The position numbers were made by a program, and so were the translations under genes. The notes beneath the pieces were generated by a model. The model was not told where the DNA came from. It did no database searches and was given only the letters and a program-made list of their open reading frames with translations. Positions 3,041-7,115 of a stretch of 64,000 nt of DNA are shown in pieces; the first letter of the stretch is position 1; each line of letters opens with the position of its first letter. The DNA is from Escherichia coli phage NG_A1. The stretch is taken from the sequence record LC788705.1; one strand, 5' to 3'.

Positions 3041-4058
3041 TTACTCGCTTTCGGTGTTAGTGGTAAAAGTAGAAATATCGATACCTTTTACCATTTCATC
3101 AATCATTTCAGCGATGTTAAAACTTTGCACCATTTCCAGCATTGCCGCTTCCATAGCCGCCCCTGCTACCGCTTTCGCCTTTTGGTTATTTGGGGCGTAT
3201 TGGTCAACCGCTACACTCAGCAGGTTAGCAATCACTACTCGACCAATAGGCGTATCGATATAACCTTTGATCATGAATGGTGCTTTTTTAGCCGCTACTT
3301 TCGTAATTTGAGTTAATGCAATTTTACCCGCCTCCAGTTTTGCAGCATTTACAACAGCGGATTTATTGGCGGCAACAATGTTAGCAATCTTGGTCATGGT
3401 GTTTTTTCCTTTGTTTTCAGTAGTTTGAGTGTTAACGCTTTGAGTGTTAGAATTTACAGCATGGTTTTCTACGCTGTCAATAATCTGATCTTCATCTTTC
3501 CAGAAAGAAAAACCAGCGCTTTCTATATCCCCATCATAAATATATGGGTATAGCTCCCGTGGTAACAAAAAATTACCGTCGTCATCAAAAGCCATTATAC
3601 CAGTATATTGAGATCCGTCGTTATCCGGCTTATGCCATCCAGCTGGTAAATACTTCCAGATAACATCTAAAAATCCCTCAATACTAGAAAGTCCGTTTAT
3701 CAGATCAAGCCCAATAAGCTCAAAACCATTTATATTAAATGATTGACGGCCTGAATTGCTATGATACGCAACAATATTATTACCCTGCGCAATAATAAAA
3801 TCGGTATCCGGCCCCGCTCCCCTGCCTGTAAAGATATGGCAATCCCGATTATATATATAAAACTAGCGTTGCCCCTTGCTTATATAATGGTAGAAAACTA
3901 TCCATATCATAGGCGTCATAATCATCAAAAAAGTTTTGATGAATAGTTTCAGCCTTGTTAATAAAATGTTTAATGCTGGTTGACTTGCTACCGTCCAGCA
4001 GGTTGCGCAATGCACCTTTTAAAACGGTGGCATTATCAGGTTTATACAGCCTCATTTG
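3041..4058 (-). CDS. Hypothetical pre-early protein, apparently interrupted by a +1 frameshift near 3849-3865 (fused product ~340 aa)
   Basis: Track ORFs 3849..4199 and 3041..3595 are joined by an 89-codon stop-free, start-less stretch (3596-3862) in the frame of the downstream ORF; strong GAGGGAGG RBS before ATG at 4058. Confidence 0.4.
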
Positions 4059-4320
4059 TTCGGCCTCCCTCGTTAATCGGTGAGTGAATGATATAGATAT
4101 TTGTTCACTAGGGGCAAGAAAAAAGAAAATGTTTTTTATTCCTTGCCTAGCGCCTAGTTTTATGCTAACCGCGCAGCGGTACAGTAAAGAGCAAAACACG
4201 GTGAAGCCACCAGGGCGACTGGTGAAGGCTTTACTTTAATATTACCCCACCGCATTTAGCTCGTTAGAAAGCGTTTTAGGCCGCTTAAAATTAATTGCAG
4301 TCGTTAACACTACCTTTCTA

Positions 4321-4440
4321 CCCTGTATATTTATACAGTAGGATAACATGTGGATAAGTCTGTGGATAAGTCCTTATATCGCCGCCTATCGTGTCAAGTT
4401 AATTTACAAAATGTATAAGGCTGTGGATAACTTAAATGAT
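4321..4440. repeat. Inverted-repeat arm B (~120 bp) carrying DnaA boxes
   Basis: Reverse complement matches 181-300; TGTGGATAA at 4349-4357, 4361-4369 and 4422-4430. Confidence 0.8.
4349..4430 (-). promoter_or_regulatory. Three consensus DnaA boxes on the complementary strand (4349-4357, 4361-4369, 4422-4430)
   Basis: Exact reverse-complement matches to TTATCCACA. Confidence 0.6.
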
Positions 4441-4620
4441 AGTGGTTCTCACTAACTAATTTATGCAGTTATTGTATAACAAAATATAGTTAGTTGGCTA
4501 ATAGGATTTTAAAGTGATTATGAGTCTGCTAATTAAACCTGAAAAACTCATTAGGTAGTCTGCTAATGATTTTGATATAATATAATAGAGATTAAATTAA
4601 TAACATAAGGAAACAATTAG

Positions 4621-5139
4621 ATGCCTAAATATAAAGATATAGATTATGACCTTTTTAATAGTTACTTTTATTATGATGAAACAGCGTTATCATTTTTACG
4701 TTGGCGGGAGGATCACGCCGTCGCAGGTGGTTTAAATGGTAATTATTGGCAAGTTGAACTATTAGACATGGGACAATTCAAAGTACATAGAATTATCTTT
4801 TGTATAATGAATGGCGGTATAGATAGCGAGCTAATGATTGATCATATTGATCGTAACACACGTAACAATAACATCTGGAATCTTCGCGCGGTTGATAGTT
4901 CGCAGAATAATTATAATCGTACTCCTAGTGAGTATGAAAACTGTAAGCGTGCTAATGGTATCCCTAGAAACATTTACGTTAATAAAGTTCGCCCCCGTGA
5001 TAGTTTCGGGCGTGATTATTTAACTGCTCAAATTAAGAATCCTATTACTAACAAGCGTGTTAGTAAGTCTGGTTATGATTTACAAGAGTTATTATTATGG
5101 CTTGAAGCTAAAAAAGCTGAATTTGGAATTGTCAATTAA
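4621..5139 (+). CDS. HNH homing endonuclease (HNH_3-type)
   Basis: Motif IDHIDRNTRNNNIWNLR; AT-rich flanks; extended -10 TGATATAAT upstream. Confidence 0.7.
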   Translation: MPKYKDIDYDLFNSYFYYDETALSFLRWREDHAVAGGLNGNYWQVELLDMGQFKVHRIIFCIMNGGIDSELMIDHIDRNTRNNNIWNLRAVDSSQNNYNRTPSEYENCKRANGIPRNIYVNKVRPRDSFGRDYLTAQIKNPITNKRVSKSGYDLQELLLWLEAKKAEFGIVN

Positions 5140-5637
5140 TTAATTTTATAAAATAACTCGTTTAGTCTTGATTTTTAAAAGTCAATATCTTTTACAACTA
5201 TTTTTCAATTTTGCTTTTGTTAAATATTTGTTAAATCGAAAATAAGCCGCCTAAAACGCCCTAGAACGCGATGAAGTTTTTAGCCATGCCATTGCATTGC
5301 CTGCCCTCGTTTATCGCTGCCACGAGCTTTTTAGATTTTGTCAAGTAGGGCAAAGCAAATATAAATGAAAAATTACTTGCCTATCTGCTTTATTTTGTGG
5401 TATTCGCGCGCCCGTTTCTTTTAATTTTAGGCCGTCGCCGCACGGTGTCCGGTGAGTTTTACCTTTACGTTTCTTTACAAAAATAAGGTTGCGCCGTTTT
5501 TAGTATTTGCTATTATTTATCTCGTAGGACGGCAACGGACTACAACGGCGGGAAGTTTACCGCCGCGCTCTTTAAAAATTGGGTACATCTTAAAGCCTAT
5601 CGGCGGTAAACTTATTACATTATAAGGAATCGACGAT

Positions 5638-5841
5638 ATGAAACAAACGCTTTTGATCACTGGCAAGCCTATTAAGGCACTAGATAGCAAAACAAAAAAC
5701 TTGTTGACAGTAGCACAAAGATCAGTAAAATATAGATTCACGCAGTACAAGAAAGGTCGCCAGCAAGGTCTGGAAATGATCTGGCGAAATATTATGATTG
5801 ACCTAAAAGAAAATCATAAAAAATTGCAAAAAATTGTTTGA
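5638..5841 (+). CDS. Small basic protein (67 aa) flanked by a 24-bp inverted repeat
   Basis: ORF track; Lys/Arg-rich; inverted repeat at 5581-5604 and 5859-5882. Confidence 0.4.
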   Translation: MKQTLLITGKPIKALDSKTKNLLTVAQRSVKYRFTQYKKGRQQGLEMIWRNIMIDLKENHKKLQKIV

Positions 5842-6071
5842 CAACCTAGCCGATAGGTTTTAAGATGTACCCAGTTCGATAAGAGCGATAACTTGATAAA
5901 ATTTGACGGTCGGTGCTTACCATAATGCATCCCGCCCCCTAACGGGATATAGCGGCCTACGTGGAGTTCTTTAAAATTGATTATATTGGCGAGCGGATTG
6001 TTACTTATTACCTGCTGTTACTTTCTAGCAGGTAATGCGGAACAATCCCCAAATAACTAGGAGTTTATATT

Positions 6072-6323
6072 ATGCAAAACGTTATTACCGCGCCGAAAGT
6101 TGGTCAATCCGTCTTCATTCCTTTCGTTACTAAAACGGATGAATTAACCGGAAAGGCCGAACGTATTAAAGGTGCGGCGCTTATGCCGTTCGATACAATC
6201 GACGCGGTATACGCTGAAAATGAACGTAGTAACAACGGCAAGCCCGTTTTTAGCGTTCGCGTTAAATCCGGCGATGTTGTAAAGGTTGTTCAACGCAACG
6301 AAAAATGGGAAGCTGTATTGTAA
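6072..6323 (+). CDS. Hypothetical pre-early protein (83 aa)
   Basis: ORF with AGGAG RBS; followed by a stem-loop at 6337-6362. Confidence 0.55.
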   Translation: MQNVITAPKVGQSVFIPFVTKTDELTGKAERIKGAALMPFDTIDAVYAENERSNNGKPVFSVRVKSGDVVKVVQRNEKWEAVL

Positions 6324-6419
6324 ATTAGTGTTAACTTTATATCCCCTTATTTCAGGGGGATATAACGATTAACATTAAGTTAATCTAATCCCTTAAATTA
6401 AACTAATAGGAGTTACATC

Positions 6420-6827
6420 ATGACTAACGCTAAAACCGCAAAATTCGCATGGAATGAAGAAAACACTCAGAAAGCTGTTTCCATGTATCAACAGTTAATT
6501 AATGAAAACGGTTTAGATTTCGCAAATAGCGACGGCCTGAAAGAGATTGCAAAAGCAGTAGGCGCGGCCTCCCCCGTATCCGTTCGCTCAAAATTGACCA
6601 GTGCAAAAGCCTATCAAAAAAGCGATAAGCCGCGTAAAGTTGGCGGCGGTAGCTCTGTGCGTAAAGCTCACTATGTGCGCGTTATCGCTAAACATGCTAT
6701 TGATTCCGGCATTATCAAAGACGCCGATGATTTGGCAAGCCTTGAAAGTGCAAAACTTGAAACGCTGGACGCAGTAGCGCAATTGTTAGGCGTTGCCGAT
6801 GAAGTAAAACAGGCCGCAGGCGAATAA
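6420..6827 (+). CDS. A2: Putative pre-early DNA-binding protein, A2-like (135 aa)
   Basis: Size and position immediately upstream of the A1-like gene; basic C-terminal half; AGGAG RBS; name assigned from memory of T5. Confidence 0.45.
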   Translation: MTNAKTAKFAWNEENTQKAVSMYQQLINENGLDFANSDGLKEIAKAVGAASPVSVRSKLTSAKAYQKSDKPRKVGGGSSVRKAHYVRVIAKHAIDSGIIKDADDLASLESAKLETLDAVAQLLGVADEVKQAAGE

Positions 6828-6917
6828 TAGTTATATCTTGCCCCCTTTTAGTGAGGGGGCAATAATATAACTGTTTAGCGATAGTTATTTTCTTCCCTTA
6901 AATCAGGAGTTTTAAAA

Positions 6918-7115
6918 ATGGTTTTCTCCCCTACTGAATCTTTAATTCTAGGCTTATTTATTATGGCGGCCTCCCTATTATTCGCTTATTTTCAAAATGA
7001 TTTAGATTCGTATTATTTTAAACGTAAATCTAAATTAGCAAAACGTTTAGGTCTGCTTTGTTTTATCGCTGCCGTTGCTTGTGGTGTTAGTTCTAGCCTA
7101 GTGCCTTTAAATTAA
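6918..7115 (+). CDS. Small membrane protein (65 aa, two predicted TM helices)
   Basis: ORF with CAGGAG RBS; hydrophobic stretches LILGLFIMAASLLFAYF and LLCFIAAVACGVSSSLV. Confidence 0.5.
   Translation: MVFSPTESLILGLFIMAASLLFAYFQNDLDSYYFKRKSKLAKRLGLLCFIAAVACGVSSSLVPLN

What the first reader, a model, noticed from the sequence alone, without database searches (positions are those of the whole stretch)
5553..5882. Nested inverted repeats enclosing a 67-aa basic ORF in a long non-coding, structure-rich stretch
A 24-bp inverted repeat (5581-5604 and 5859-5882, 23/24 matching) flanks ORF 5638..5841, and a second 13-bp inverted repeat (AAGTTTACCGCCG/CGGCGGTAAACTT, ~5553-5613) is nested around the first arm. 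A TTTTAGGC(C/G)GC motif recurs at 4271-4284, 5246-5260 and 5425-5434. The ~500-bp and ~230-bp non-coding flanks are unusual in an otherwise tightly packed genome and could hold an ncRNA, an operator array or part of the injection-stop/replication signals.
Basis: seen in the sequence. Interest (0 to 1): 0.45.

Follow-up and report, generated by a model that had tools for sequence, protein, structure and literature searches.

The report
Phage T5 hdi cassette, rRNA-like bracket
The inverted repeat is the already annotated "inverted repeat A/A'" of phage T5 around the known cell-division-inhibitor gene hdi. The new point is that a ribosomal-RNA-type boxA antitermination signal sits directly before it, so the gene seems to be bracketed the way bacteria bracket their rRNAs.

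Summary
A 24-nt inverted repeat lies at 5581-5604 and 5849-5872, with 1 mismatch and 0 such pairs expected by chance. It extends to 39 nt (5566-5604 / 5849-5887).

Much of this is already known. The window is a T5-like Tequintavirus read in reverse orientation. The repeat is "inverted repeat A/A'" of the T5 GenBank record, in Davison's "Repeat Region 1". The 67-aa ORF is hdi (T5.008), an FtsZ-targeting host division inhibitor. The strong pre-early promoters P_H22 and P_D/E20/T5P1 lie inside hdi and on the right arm. No function has been assigned to the repeat.

My analysis adds three things:
- The arms co-vary across five lineages of Demerecviridae, while the cassette between them changes content and length (217-436 nt).
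- Departures from Watson-Crick pairing are mostly G.U on the sense strand: 101 G.U cells against 8 A.C cells.
- GCTCTTTAAAAAT (5567-5579), directly 5' of the left arm, is identical to the E. coli rrn spacer boxA. It is always in the sense orientation. Most other lineages have a second copy just after the right arm.

Best reading: an rrn-like module, made of boxA plus a leader-trailer RNA helix that is probably an RNase III site. This mechanism is inferred, not shown.

The parts
5546..5565 (+). Small GC hairpin (CGGCGG / CCGCCG, 8-nt loop) directly 5' of boxA. It occupies the position that boxB has in rrn leaders.
   Evidence: It appears in the minimum-free-energy fold and in the RNAalifold consensus. 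The stem is nearly invariant, so there is no covariation either way. Calling it boxB-like rests on position only.
5567..5579 (+). boxA-like element GCTCTTTAAAAAT, the putative NusB/NusE loading site on the sense RNA.
   Evidence: It is identical to the boxA 13-mer in the E. coli 16S-23S spacer (L106 position 4713, 119 nt upstream of 23S). It is the only match in the 64-kb window on either strand, allowing up to 1 mismatch to GCTCTTTAAMAA. In 28 distinct relatives there are 32 exact sense copies and 0 antisense copies, against 0.017 expected. It abuts the left arm in every lineage examined.
5577..5604 (+). Left arm (T5 'inverted repeat A''): the 5' strand of the proposed leader-trailer helix. 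The core is 5581-5604.
   Evidence: It maps onto AY587007 4950-4974. It is 95-100% conserved, whereas synonymous sites of hdi differ by 0.36 per site.
5566..5572 (+). Outer 7-bp stem, 5' half (CGCTCTT). It overlaps boxA and pairs with AAGAGCG at 5881-5887.
   Evidence: helix 1, 98.6% of cells paired. It is found only in the T5-type lineage. Other lineages carry a second boxA on the right side instead.
5553..5613 (+). It is a possible alternative hairpin with boxA and the left arm in its loop.
   Evidence: It is perfect in the window. It has no compensatory changes: 28 A.C cells against 4 G.U cells, and 3 pairs are broken in L009 and L013. It is absent from Klebsiella, Serratia and TrudiGerster phages. 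Neither the MFE fold nor RNAalifold chooses it. Support is weak.
5638..5841 (+). hdi (T5.008): host division inhibitor, 67 aa.
   Evidence: 88% identical to T5 YP_006836. Matches Pfam DUF7416 at 6e-37 and phrog_4718 at 3e-40. pN/pS is 0.14 over 35 alleles. Its function is taken from PMC10714956.
5704..5731 (+). Promoter P_H22 (TTGACA-16-TAAAAT), inside hdi.
   Evidence: Promoter scan, 11 of 12 consensus positions. It maps inside the NC_005859 'promoter P-H 22' feature, 4799..4873. An in-vivo pre-early transcript from it is reported in PMC7472727.
5838..5866 (+). Promoter T5P1, probably the same as P_D/E20 (TTGACA-17-TAAGAT). The -35 hexamer overlaps the hdi stop codon. The spacer and the -10 hexamer lie in the right arm.
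   Evidence: Promoter scan, 10 of 12. It maps onto AY587007 T5P1, 4663..4737. The 2026 preprint says P_D/E20 partly overlaps hdi. The same -35/17 nt/-10 layout sits on the right arm of every lineage. NC_005859 draws P-D/E 20 as a broad feature just downstream of the arm, so the equation with P_D/E20 is probable, not certain.
5849..5876 (+). Right arm (T5 'inverted repeat A'): the 3' strand of the proposed helix. The core is 5849-5872.
   Evidence: It maps onto AY587007 4682-4706.
5881..5887 (+). Outer stem, 3' half (AAGAGCG), complementary to the 5' half of boxA.
5338..5365 (+). Candidate upstream promoter (TTGTCA-16-TATAAA) that could supply transcripts carrying boxA, both arms and hdi.
   Evidence: Read directly from the sequence. 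It lies in a conserved block, 0.88-0.95 identity. The homologous TTGTCA-16-GAAAAT was picked up in phage Stitch. It is not experimentally known. The annotated promoter upstream of hegG (NC_005859 5938..6012) is the alternative source.
4255..5275 (.). T5 inverted repeat B'/B (4255-4287 / 5243-5275). It encloses the DnaA-box pairs and the HNH endonuclease gene hegG (4621-5139). This is context, not part of the hdi module.
   Evidence: (I2, D3).

Best explanation
Already known parts. The window is a T5-like phage, and this stretch is its pre-early 'Repeat Region 1'. The ORF is hdi, the FtsZ-directed host division inhibitor. P_H22 fires from inside hdi. The T5P1/P_D/E20 promoter core lies on the right arm.

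Proposed mechanism (inferred). The repeat acts in RNA, on the sense (+) strand, as a small copy of the rRNA-operon layout.
1. Transcripts that start upstream of 5546, from the promoter ahead of hegG and/or a conserved candidate at 5338-5365, first make a small hairpin.
2. They then make an rrn-type boxA (5567-5579), and straight after it the 5' strand of a long helix (5577-5604).
3. NusB/NusE and the other Nus factors load on boxA. This makes RNA polymerase resistant to Rho across the long untranslated stretches. It also keeps the 5' strand tethered at the RNA exit channel.
4. When the 3' strand (5849-5876) emerges, 8 nt after the hdi stop codon, the two strands close a helix of about 28 bp, plus 7 more bp in T5-type phages. 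This loops out the hdi cassette.
5. A duplex of that length is a natural RNase III substrate. Cleavage would release a discrete hdi mRNA. It would also leave a downstream RNA whose 5' end nearly matches the start of the P_D/E20 transcript.

In most lineages a fresh boxA follows the 3' strand directly, as in rrn operons, where a second boxA follows the 16S helix. The T5-type lineage, including this window, has lost that second copy and carries a sequence complementary to half of boxA instead.
For: Identity:
- Best DNA matches are Tequintavirus genomes at 93%.
- The coordinates map one-to-one onto T5 inverted repeat A/A', T5P1 and P-H 22.
- Hdi is 88% identical to the T5 protein. The relevant literature was read.

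Constraint on the arms:
- The arms are 95-100% conserved, whereas hdi synonymous sites differ by 0.36 per site.

Pairing and covariation:
- Over 43 distinct sequences, 99.0% of 1481 cells form standard pairs, against 28-42% when the partners are slid.
- Five pairs changed on both sides (4 of 500 shuffles reach this).
- Sixteen cells changed on both sides (0 of 500 shuffles).
- RNAalifold finds the same helix on its own.
- Across lineages each arm differs from the window's at 7-17 of about 30 positions, yet 26-29 of 28-31 positions still pair within each phage.
- In Pectobacterium phage My1, two tandem cassettes each have their own arm pair, unrelated in sequence to the other.
- The loop varies in length (217-436 nt) and in gene content: hdi alone, a second small gene plus hdi, or that gene alone.

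Strand:
- Non-Watson-Crick cells are 101 G.U on the + strand against 8 A.C, which gives 99.0% pairing on + and 92.7% on -.
- Unpaired non-coding sites show no matching mutation bias: 123 against 148.
- The + strand RNA folds into the helix with z = -9.3.

boxA:
- The motif is identical to the E. coli rrn spacer boxA.
- Copies are sense-only: 32 to 0 in 146 kb, with 0.017 expected.
- A copy abuts the left arm in all lineages, and a second copy lies 10-25 nt after the right arm in Epseptimavirus, TrudiGerster, Klebsiella and Serratia phages. My1 has the layout boxA-helix-boxA-helix-boxA.
- A boxA-like motif also sits in the sense leader of the A2-A1 operon of three distant phages that lack the hdi cassette. 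It is exact in Vibrio phage Ceto and differs at one position in Vibrio phage JSF10 and Aeromonas phage AhSzw-1.

The rrn precedent, read in PMC10250234:
- boxA anchors the 5' strand of a 25-40 bp leader-trailer helix, with boxC, in the middle of that strand, 18-19 nt downstream of boxA.
- RNase III cleaves that helix.
Against: - No experiment or transcript map was available. Binding of Nus factors, formation of the helix in vivo and RNase III cleavage are all inferred.
- The promoter that makes the RNA carrying both arms is not identified.
- The abundant P_H22 and P_D/E20 transcripts lack the left arm. In T5-type phages they also lack any good boxA.
- The strand asymmetry is strong when counted by cells but weak when counted by sites: about 9-10 G.U sites against 6 A.C sites. 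The sequences are also related, so cells are not independent.
- Distant lineages carry some A.C mismatches: TrudiGerster 2, Gostya9 2, My1 2.
- The right arm is also a promoter core, which by itself explains part of its conservation.
- Hdi is dispensable in the laboratory, so the selective value of elaborate processing is unclear.
- No Rfam family matches the region, though none would be expected for boxA.
Confidence: 0.5

Rival explanations
1. The two arms are a pair of DNA operators for a phage or host protein, for example the A2 dimer or the A1-RNA polymerase complex that shuts off pre-early promoters. One operator covers the -10 hexamer of P_D/E20. The other lies about 270 bp upstream. Bridging them would loop out P_H22 and repress both promoters, in the manner of gal, lac or deo operator loops.
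For: - The right arm overlaps the spacer and -10 hexamer of a strong promoter in every lineage.
- Pre-early transcription is known to be shut off in an A1-dependent way, and A2 is a DNA-binding dimer.
- Two inverted half-sites would suit a symmetric dimer.
- Arms that co-evolve with a diverging protein would also look like covariation.
Against: - Departures from complementarity are strongly biased to G.U on one strand (101 against 8 cells). A duplex-DNA site does not predict this.
- My1 has two adjacent cassettes whose arm pairs are unrelated in sequence. That would need two different proteins.
- Arm-to-arm distance varies from 217 to 436 nt with no helical phasing.
- The orientation-specific boxA next to each arm has no role in this model.
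Confidence: 0.15
2. Only boxA is functional, as anti-Rho protection of the long untranslated pre-early leaders. The inverted repeat would be a by-product. The left arm would be an inverted partial copy of the P_D/E20 promoter core, kept alike by recombination, or conserved as a flank that lets phages swap the hdi cassette.
For: - boxA alone is conserved in Vibrio and Aeromonas relatives that have no repeat.
- The cassette content between the arms does differ among phages, as expected if conserved flanks promote exchange.
- The right arm is a promoter.
Against: - Arms of 24-30 nt are short for gene conversion.
- Exchange between genomes needs conserved flanks but not an inverted arrangement.
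- The left arm has no usable -35 hexamer on the minus strand (read), so it is not a divergent promoter.
- Complementarity has been kept through 7-17 changes per arm across lineages, with a wobble bias. That argues for selection on pairing itself.
Confidence: 0.15
3. The repeat marks a mobile or switchable DNA element. It would be either a miniature transposon with terminal inverted repeats carrying hdi, or an invertible promoter segment like fimS or hin.
For: - Inverted repeats flank a small gene that carries an internal promoter.
- A homing endonuclease gene sits next door.
Against: - The arm sequence occurs only at this locus: 2 copies in the 64-kb window and 2 per terminal repeat in relatives.
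- There is no target-site duplication at the arm ends.
- The interior has the same orientation in all 43 distinct relatives plus the distant lineages.
- No recombinase or transposase gene is in the neighbourhood.
Confidence: 0.03
4. A DNA-level secondary structure, either a cruciform or a + strand hairpin in single-stranded DNA, that takes part in two-step injection, nicking or replication.
For: - The region lies in the first-step-transfer DNA, near arrays of DnaA boxes and other repeats for which such roles have been proposed.
- G.T wobble on the + strand would also fit + strand single-stranded DNA.
Against: - A loop of 217-436 nt makes cruciform extrusion very unfavourable (established knowledge).
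- T5 injects duplex DNA.
- Davison excludes Repeat Region 1 as the stop signal on positional grounds.
- The adjacent boxA is an RNA signal.
Confidence: 0.05

Closest known systems
Phage T5 'inverted repeat A/A'' in Repeat Region 1 of the left terminal repeat (GenBank AY587007; Davison, bioRxiv 10.1101/866236)
   Same: It is the same element. The arms map to AY587007 4682-4706 and 4950-4974. The spacing is the same (243-244 nt). It has the same neighbours: T5.007, A2 and A1 downstream, and the HNH gene and inverted repeat B upstream.
   Different: There is no structural difference; the window is a close relative (86% identical over the 932-nt region from hegG to T5.007, arms 96-97%). The literature lists it as a conserved repeat without a function. 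It does not mention boxA, the strand bias or the link to hdi.
E. coli rrn operons: boxB-boxA-boxC leader, leader-trailer helices cleaved by RNase III, second boxA in the 16S-23S spacer
   Same: - Identical boxA sequence.
- boxA lies directly upstream of the 5' strand of a 25-40 bp long-range helix.
- The helix shows Watson-Crick/wobble covariation.
- A new boxA follows the 3' strand in most phage lineages.
- A small hairpin precedes boxA.
   Different: - The loop holds a 200-440 nt protein-coding cassette, not a 1.5-2.9 kb structural RNA.
- There is no similarity to boxC.
- The 3' strand doubles as a sigma-70 promoter core.
- The window's lineage lacks the second boxA.
- Nus binding and RNase III cleavage are untested here.
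Lambda nut sites (boxA + boxB) and N-dependent antitermination
   Same: A phage uses a boxA RNA signal near the start of early transcripts to recruit host Nus factors (for the lambda system).
   Different: - The T5-type boxA has the rrn sequence (GCUCUUUAA). The shorter lambda form (CGCUCUUA) is quoted from my own knowledge.
- No N-like protein or boxB loop is evident.
- T5 is virulent, and no antiterminator is known for it.
boxA elements upstream of CRISPR arrays (Stringer et al., eLife 2020, PMC7665894)
   Same: A stand-alone rrn-type boxA protects a long untranslated transcript from Rho. The T5 pre-early leaders of about 500 and 230 nt would have the same need.
   Different: No long-range helix is attached to the CRISPR boxA. 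That function was shown by experiment, and this one was not.
RNase III processing of phage early mRNAs (T7 R sites) and lambda sib retroregulation (from my own knowledge)
   Same: A double-stranded RNA element at a gene boundary sets mRNA ends and stability. In sib, a site 3' of the gene acts only on read-through transcripts.
   Different: Those are local hairpins. Here the duplex would join the 5' UTR and 3' UTR across the whole cistron.

Membership tests
T5 inverted repeat A/A' (Repeat Region 1) | Homologous position and sequence in the T5 left terminal repeat, between T5.007 and the HNH gene | tested here: met
   BLAST of 5140-6071 against T5 gives 86% identity over 944 nt, and the T5 arms at L003 4679-4706 are found as an inverted hit. 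The annotated features at 4682-4706 and 4950-4974 map onto the window arms.
Hdi / T5.008 (Pfam DUF7416, phrog_4718) | Sequence membership and a coding signature | tested here: met
   Pfam 6.2e-37 against a cut-off of 27 bits; phrog_4718 at 2.7e-40. 88% identical to T5.008. pN/pS is 0.14.
Hdi / T5.008 | Inhibits FtsZ ring formation | not testable with these tools
   Shown for the T5 protein in PMC10714956. Inferred here from 88% identity.
rrn-type boxA (NusB/NusE site) | Match to the E. coli boxA sequence GCUCUUUAA(C/A)AA | tested here: met
   5567-5579 is identical to the E. coli spacer boxA 13-mer. GCTCTTTAA is invariant in all phage copies.
rrn-type boxA (NusB/NusE site) | Lies on the transcribed (sense) strand, downstream of a promoter, in an untranslated leader | tested here: inconclusive
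   Orientation: 32 sense copies and 0 antisense in 28 loci, and sense in every other lineage, including a divergent operon in phage Slocum. The promoter that feeds it is only predicted.
rrn-type boxA (NusB/NusE site) | Binds NusB-NusE and confers resistance to Rho termination | not testable with these tools
   Needs EMSA, ChIP, and reporter assays with bicyclomycin.
Leader-trailer helix / RNase III processing stem | Long-range complementary segments (at least about 20 bp) flanking a functional RNA, kept by covariation | tested here: met
   28 + 7 bp; 99.0% of cells paired; 5 pairs changed on both sides (4 of 500 shuffles); slid controls 28-42%. Complementarity is retained across lineages despite 7-17 changes per arm.
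Leader-trailer helix / RNase III processing stem | The 5' strand sits just downstream of boxA | tested here: met
   boxA ends at 5578-5579 and the helix strand starts at 5577-5581. The same adjacency holds in all lineages. For the rrn geometry.
Leader-trailer helix / RNase III processing stem | Cleaved by RNase III in vivo | not testable with these tools
   No transcript-end data were available. The library search for bacteriophage T5 plus RNase III gave nothing relevant.
T5 injection stop signal (iss) | Lies at the right end of the terminal repeat (Repeat Region 3), with inverted repeat D'-spacer-C' and paired DnaA boxes | tested here: not met
   The element maps to Repeat Region 1. The DnaA-box pairs of the window are elsewhere, at 4351-4369 and 4412-4430 (D3).
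Transposon / MITE terminal inverted repeats | Dispersed copies, target-site duplication, presence/absence polymorphism with clean ends | tested here: not met
   The arms are unique to this locus. There is no flanking direct repeat. The arms are present in all relatives even when the interior is replaced.
Invertible promoter switch | Both orientations found among genomes; a site-specific recombinase nearby | tested here: not met
   One orientation in all relatives. No recombinase gene in the region.

The most novel reading that the evidence does not exclude
T5-like phages have copied the design of the host's ribosomal RNA operons for their pre-early transcription units. An rrn-type boxA recruits the Nus/rrn antitermination machinery, and a boxA-anchored leader-trailer helix is cut by RNase III to excise small host-takeover gene cassettes such as hdi. 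Where there is a downstream boxA, the polymerase complex is re-armed after each helix. This would be the first case of the rrn transcription-and-chaperone mechanism serving a protein-coding phage cassette. It would give a function to one of the unexplained 'repeat regions' of T5.
Probability: 0.4. Interest if true: 0.8.

Novelty: new variant of a known kind. Interest (0 to 1): 0.6.

Why it matters
The repeat regions of the T5 first-step-transfer DNA have been catalogued since the 1980s without an assigned function. How T5 drives and then shuts off its very strong pre-early transcription is also still open.

Seeing an rrn-type boxA fused to a co-varying long-range helix turns one of these regions into a concrete hypothesis that can be tested. 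The tests are phage growth and transcript ends in nusB, nusE and rnc hosts, point mutants of boxA, and compensatory mutants of the arms.

If the hypothesis holds:
- A virulent phage would be shown to borrow the host's rRNA antitermination and chaperone machinery for mRNA.
- It would explain why a boxA-like motif sits in the sense leader of the pre-early operon in every Demerecviridae lineage examined, from enterobacterial to Vibrio and Aeromonas phages (the distant copies differ at one position in two of three cases).
- It would explain how expression of the toxic Hdi protein is kept separate from the essential A2-A1 operon.

If it fails, the finding falls back to an already annotated repeat around an already characterised gene.

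Tried and rejected
- Rfam scan of 3500-7000 at E <= 1 gave only two chance-level eukaryotic hits.
- The metagenome scan and the two IMG/VR scans added few new variants: 18 metagenome stretches and 37 IMG/VR stretches, mostly the same genomes. The strand test therefore rests on 43 distinct sequences.
- The nested 13-bp repeat was examined as a conserved hairpin and set aside. It has no compensation, it is broken in two relatives, it is absent in distant lineages, and it is not chosen by either fold.
- I looked for a leftward promoter using the left arm's inverted -10 hexamer. There is no acceptable -35 hexamer (read).
- I looked for a promoter between the left arm and the hdi start codon. There is none, so hdi mRNA must start upstream of the arm.
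- A possible second boxA in the window (5966-5978, GTTCTTTAAAATT, 2 mismatches) was rejected as unsupported. Matches at that stringency are at the chance level (10 found, 7.6 expected), and the site is polymorphic in relatives.
- GC skew of the leader as a sign of a Rho-loading site showed only a weak C excess at 5140-5340.
- The first codon-position count for hdi was spoiled by non-homologous interiors in the alignment. It was redone on 35 clean alleles.
- Literature searches for T5 with RNase III, boxA or NusB found nothing linking them. Davison's 2015 review could not be fetched.
- The mobile-element and invertible-switch readings were rejected (see rival explanations).
Full report
**1. Observation**

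The repeat is real.
- The repeat finder reports arms 5566-5604 and 5849-5887: 39 nt, 85% complementary, 244 nt apart.
- The 24-nt core occurs exactly twice in the 64-kb window, at 5849-5872 (+) and 5581-5604 (-, one mismatch). None is expected by chance.
The 23/24 figure is correct.
- The nested perfect 13-mer repeat (5553-5565 / 5601-5613), the 67-aa ORF 5638..5841 and the TTTTAGGCSG motif (3 copies against 0.2 expected) are all confirmed.

**2. What is already known about this place**

The window is a T5-like phage.
- Best hits are Tequintavirus genomes at 93% and 92%.
- It reads in the opposite orientation to the T5 reference. Downstream on the + strand lie homologues of T5.007, A2, A1 and dmp.

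Mapping onto the T5 records gives these equivalences:
- The right arm is 'inverted repeat A' (AY587007 4682-4706).
- The left arm is 'inverted repeat A'' (4950-4974).
- TTGACA-17-TAAGAT at 5838-5866 is 'putative pre-early promoter T5P1'.
- TTGACA-16-TAAAAT at 5704-5731 lies inside 'promoter P-H 22'.
- The second long repeat, 4255-4287 / 5243-5275, is inverted repeat B'/B around the HNH endonuclease gene hegG.

The literature says the following:
- Davison's comparison of 25 T5-like phages calls this stretch 'Repeat Region 1'. It notes that the region is conserved in almost all of them. It excludes the region as the injection stop signal because of its position, and it assigns no function.
- The ORF is hdi (T5.008). 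It is 88% identical to the T5 protein, matches Pfam DUF7416 and phrog_4718, and has pN/pS of 0.14 over 35 alleles.
- Hdi destabilises FtsZ rings and gives T5 a competitive advantage (PMC10714956). It is dispensable in the laboratory.
- P_H22 gives a pre-early transcript in vivo (PMC7472727).
- A 2026 preprint states that P_H22 lies wholly within hdi and that P_D/E20 partly overlaps it.
- NC_005859 draws P-D/E 20 as a broad feature just downstream of the arm. Equating T5P1 with P_D/E20 is therefore probable, not certain.

So the ORF, the promoters and the existence of the repeat are known. The function of the repeat is not.

**3. Comparative anatomy**

I collected the locus from IMG/VR, GenBank and metagenomes. 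This gave 43 distinct arm pairs of the T5/Epseptimavirus type, plus more distant phages.

Conservation:
- The arms are 95-100% conserved.
- Synonymous sites of hdi differ by 0.36 per site.
- The block 5460-5640 is the most conserved part of the whole 930-nt intergenic region, more so than hdi itself.

The interior is a variable cassette:
- hdi alone in T5-type phages.
- An extra small gene inserted exactly at the hdi start codon in fp01 and chee24.
- That gene family plus hdi in TrudiGerster, UTK0009, and the Klebsiella and Serratia phages.
- That gene alone in Gostya9 and DT57-like phages.

An inverted repeat brackets the cassette in every case, with loops of 217 to 436 nt.

Pectobacterium phage My1 has two such cassettes in tandem.
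- One holds the Hdi homologue My1_013 (phrog_4718, 1e-18).
- Each cassette has its own arm pair, unrelated in sequence to the other.

Every right arm starts 2-17 nt after the stop codon of the last cassette gene. Every right arm also carries the spacer and -10 hexamer of a TTGACA-17-TAnnAT promoter.

**4. Pairing, covariation and strand**

On the alignment of 43 sequences, the 35-pair long-range structure gives these figures:
- 99.0% of cells form standard pairs, against 28-42% when the 3' partners are slid by 1-3 columns.
- Five pairs changed on both sides; 4 of 500 shuffles reach this.
- Sixteen cells changed on both sides; 0 of 500 shuffles reach this.

Examples of pair changes are U-A to A-U in all Epseptimavirus sequences, and C-G to U.G to U-A at 5586/5867.

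RNAalifold recovers the same helix on its own.

Across lineages, each arm differs from the window's at 7-17 of about 30 aligned positions. Within each phage, 26-29 of 28-31 positions still pair.

The strand test:
- Of the cells that are not Watson-Crick, 101 are G.U on the + strand and 8 are A.C. A.C cells would be G.U on the - strand.
- That gives 99.0% pairing on + and 92.7% on -.
- All five polymorphisms found in many sequences are of the G.U type.
- The A.C cells are singletons or belong to the hdi-less Gostya9/DT57 group.
- Unpaired non-coding sites show no matching mutation bias (123 against 148 sites).

Caveats on the strand test:
- Counted by sites, the contrast is only about 9-10 against 6.
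- The sequences are related, so cells are not independent.
- Distant lineages carry a few A.C mismatches.

The + strand is the sense strand of hdi and of the pre-early operon. As RNA, 5540-5900 folds into this helix at -112 kcal/mol, with z = -9.3.

**5. The boxA lead**

When the arm contexts of all lineages are set side by side, the same 12-mer, GCTCTTTAA(A/C)AA, appears directly 5' of every left arm.

It is the boxA of the rrn operons:
- My recalled rrn leader sequence matched all 5,426 complete E. coli genomes, at a median of 7 places per genome.
- In one rrn operon, GCTCTTTAACAAT lies 143 nt upstream of 16S.
- In the same operon, GCTCTTTAAAAAT lies 119 nt upstream of 23S.
- Window 5567-5579 is identical to the second of these.

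Distribution in the phages:
- It is the only match in the window on either strand, allowing up to 1 mismatch.
- It is the only match in the 11 kb of T5 sequence examined, which covers the 10.1-kb left terminal repeat.
- In 28 distinct relatives (146 kb) there are 32 exact copies on the sense strand and none on the antisense strand, with 0.017 expected.
- Epseptimavirus, TrudiGerster, Klebsiella and Serratia phages have a second sense copy 10-25 nt after the right arm.
- My1 has the layout boxA-helix-boxA-helix-boxA.
- Serratia phage Slocum has a third copy in the sense leader of the divergent operon.
- Vibrio phages Ceto and JSF10 and Aeromonas phage AhSzw-1 lack hdi and the repeat. They still carry a boxA-like motif in the sense leader of the A2-A1 operon: exact in Ceto, one position different in the other two.
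- T5-type phages, including the window, have lost the copy after the right arm. At 5881-5887 they have AAGAGCG, which pairs with the 5' half of boxA.

I found no paper in the searchable library that links boxA or NusB with T5-like phages. Closed-access older literature could not be checked.

**6. Mechanism proposed**

In rrn operons (PMC10250234):
- boxA nucleates the Nus-factor antitermination complex.
- The 5' strand of a 25-40 bp leader-trailer helix lies just downstream of boxA. boxC, in the middle of that strand, is 18-19 nt from boxA.
- According to a published hypothesis, that strand is held at the RNA exit channel until the trailer emerges.
- RNase III then cleaves the helix.
- A second set of boxB, boxA and boxC elements lies upstream of the 23S gene.

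The phage locus has the same order of parts:
- a small hairpin;
- boxA;
- the 5' strand;
- the looped-out cassette;
- the 3' strand;
- in most lineages, a new boxA.

I therefore propose that sense transcripts starting upstream of 5546 load Nus factors at boxA. This would protect them from Rho across the untranslated stretches of about 500 and 230 nt, and it would promote closure of the helix around hdi. RNase III would then excise the hdi mRNA. The downstream product would begin almost where the P_D/E20 transcript begins.

What is shown:
- the anatomy;
- the conservation;
- the covariation;
- the strand bias;
- the sequence identity to boxA and its orientation.

What is inferred:
- the upstream transcript;
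- Nus-factor binding;
- helix formation in vivo;
- RNase III cleavage;
- the benefit to the phage.

**7. Rivals**

- A looped pair of DNA operators for pre-early shut-off is the strongest alternative, because the right arm covers a promoter's -10 hexamer. It does not predict the wobble bias, the unrelated arm pairs within My1, or the boxA adjacency.
- 'boxA functional, repeat incidental' cannot be excluded.
- The mobile-element and invertible-switch readings fail their defining tests. The arms are unique to the locus, there is no target duplication, the orientation is always the same, and no recombinase is nearby.
- A DNA cruciform is unlikely with loops this long.

**8. Verdict**

- The finding as written describes an element that is already annotated, around a gene that is already characterised.
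- It is not the injection stop signal.
- The unexplained part, which is why the repeat is so conserved, now has a specific and testable explanation: a variant of the rrn boxA/leader-trailer system. I hold this explanation at about 0.5.

Noticed in passing
window 4351-4369 and 4412-4430: Paired DnaA boxes (TGTGGATAA gtc TGTGGATAA, and a second pair 61 nt away) between inverted repeat B' and hegG. They correspond to the 'IRC-spacer-IRD' DnaA-box arrays that Davison links to the injection stop (D3, 12).
   Followed up: partly
window 4621-5139: HNH homing endonuclease gene (the hegG homologue; Pfam HNH_3, phrog_99). It splits what is one repeat region in most T5-like phages. Many relatives lack it, for example Stitch.
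   Followed up: partly
window 5995-6016 / 6027-6048: A 22-nt hairpin in the 5' leader of the T5.007 homologue, just before its ribosome-binding site. Relatives show compensatory changes: ACCTGCT/AGCAGGT against ATCTGCT/AGCAGAT, and a different stem in Epseptimavirus. A hairpin is present at the same place in TrudiGerster, Gostya9 and Slocum (I3, 32, 93).
   Followed up: partly
window 5460-5545: An ultra-conserved non-coding block (0.94-0.99 identity) upstream of the boxA hairpin, for example TTTCTTTACAAAAATAAGGTTGCGCC. It is conserved even in the Serratia phage, where it shows up as spurious ORFs in different frames. No convincing promoter could be read in it, and its function is unknown.
   Followed up: partly
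relatives: L078 1310-1501, L079 ~1601-1771, L083 1028-1201, L084 1009-1176, L023/L026 insertion at the hdi start: A second small gene family (55-63 aa, motif ITVEQAExVIxF; the Klebsiella form is phrog_25172) shares the bracketed cassette with hdi, or replaces it in Gostya9 and DT57-like phages. In fp01 and chee24 its stop codon overlaps the hdi start (TAATG). Its function is unknown.
   Followed up: partly
window 5365-5625: The small ORFs annotated here in some relatives (T5.009, phrog_17446) are not intact in the window. One reading frame stops at about 5420. A GTG ORF at 5452-5625 matches only the C-terminal half of the family. This suggests the stretch is non-coding RNA leader rather than protein-coding.
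   Followed up: partly
L109 3829, L107 3838, L108 4149; L081 2945; L085 1449: The copy of boxA in the operon leader is conserved as a longer 19-mer, GCTCTTTAACAATTTGGAA, from Vibrio phage Ceto to Salmonella and Serratia phages. That is beyond the 8-12 nt that NusB/NusE is reported to need. An additional factor may read the TTTGGAA extension.
   Followed up: no
window 5930-5947: A conserved small GC stem-loop (CCCGCCCCCTAACGGG) in a stretch of about 75 nt that T5-type phages have between the right arm and the T5.007 leader, and that Epseptimavirus lacks.
   Followed up: no
T5 records AY587007 and NC_005859: The annotations disagree on the position of promoter P_D/E20. NC_005859 4338..4664 maps to window 5892-6218, where no consensus promoter is seen. 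Wang's T5P1 and a 2026 preprint place a promoter on the hdi 3' end and the right arm.
   Followed up: partly
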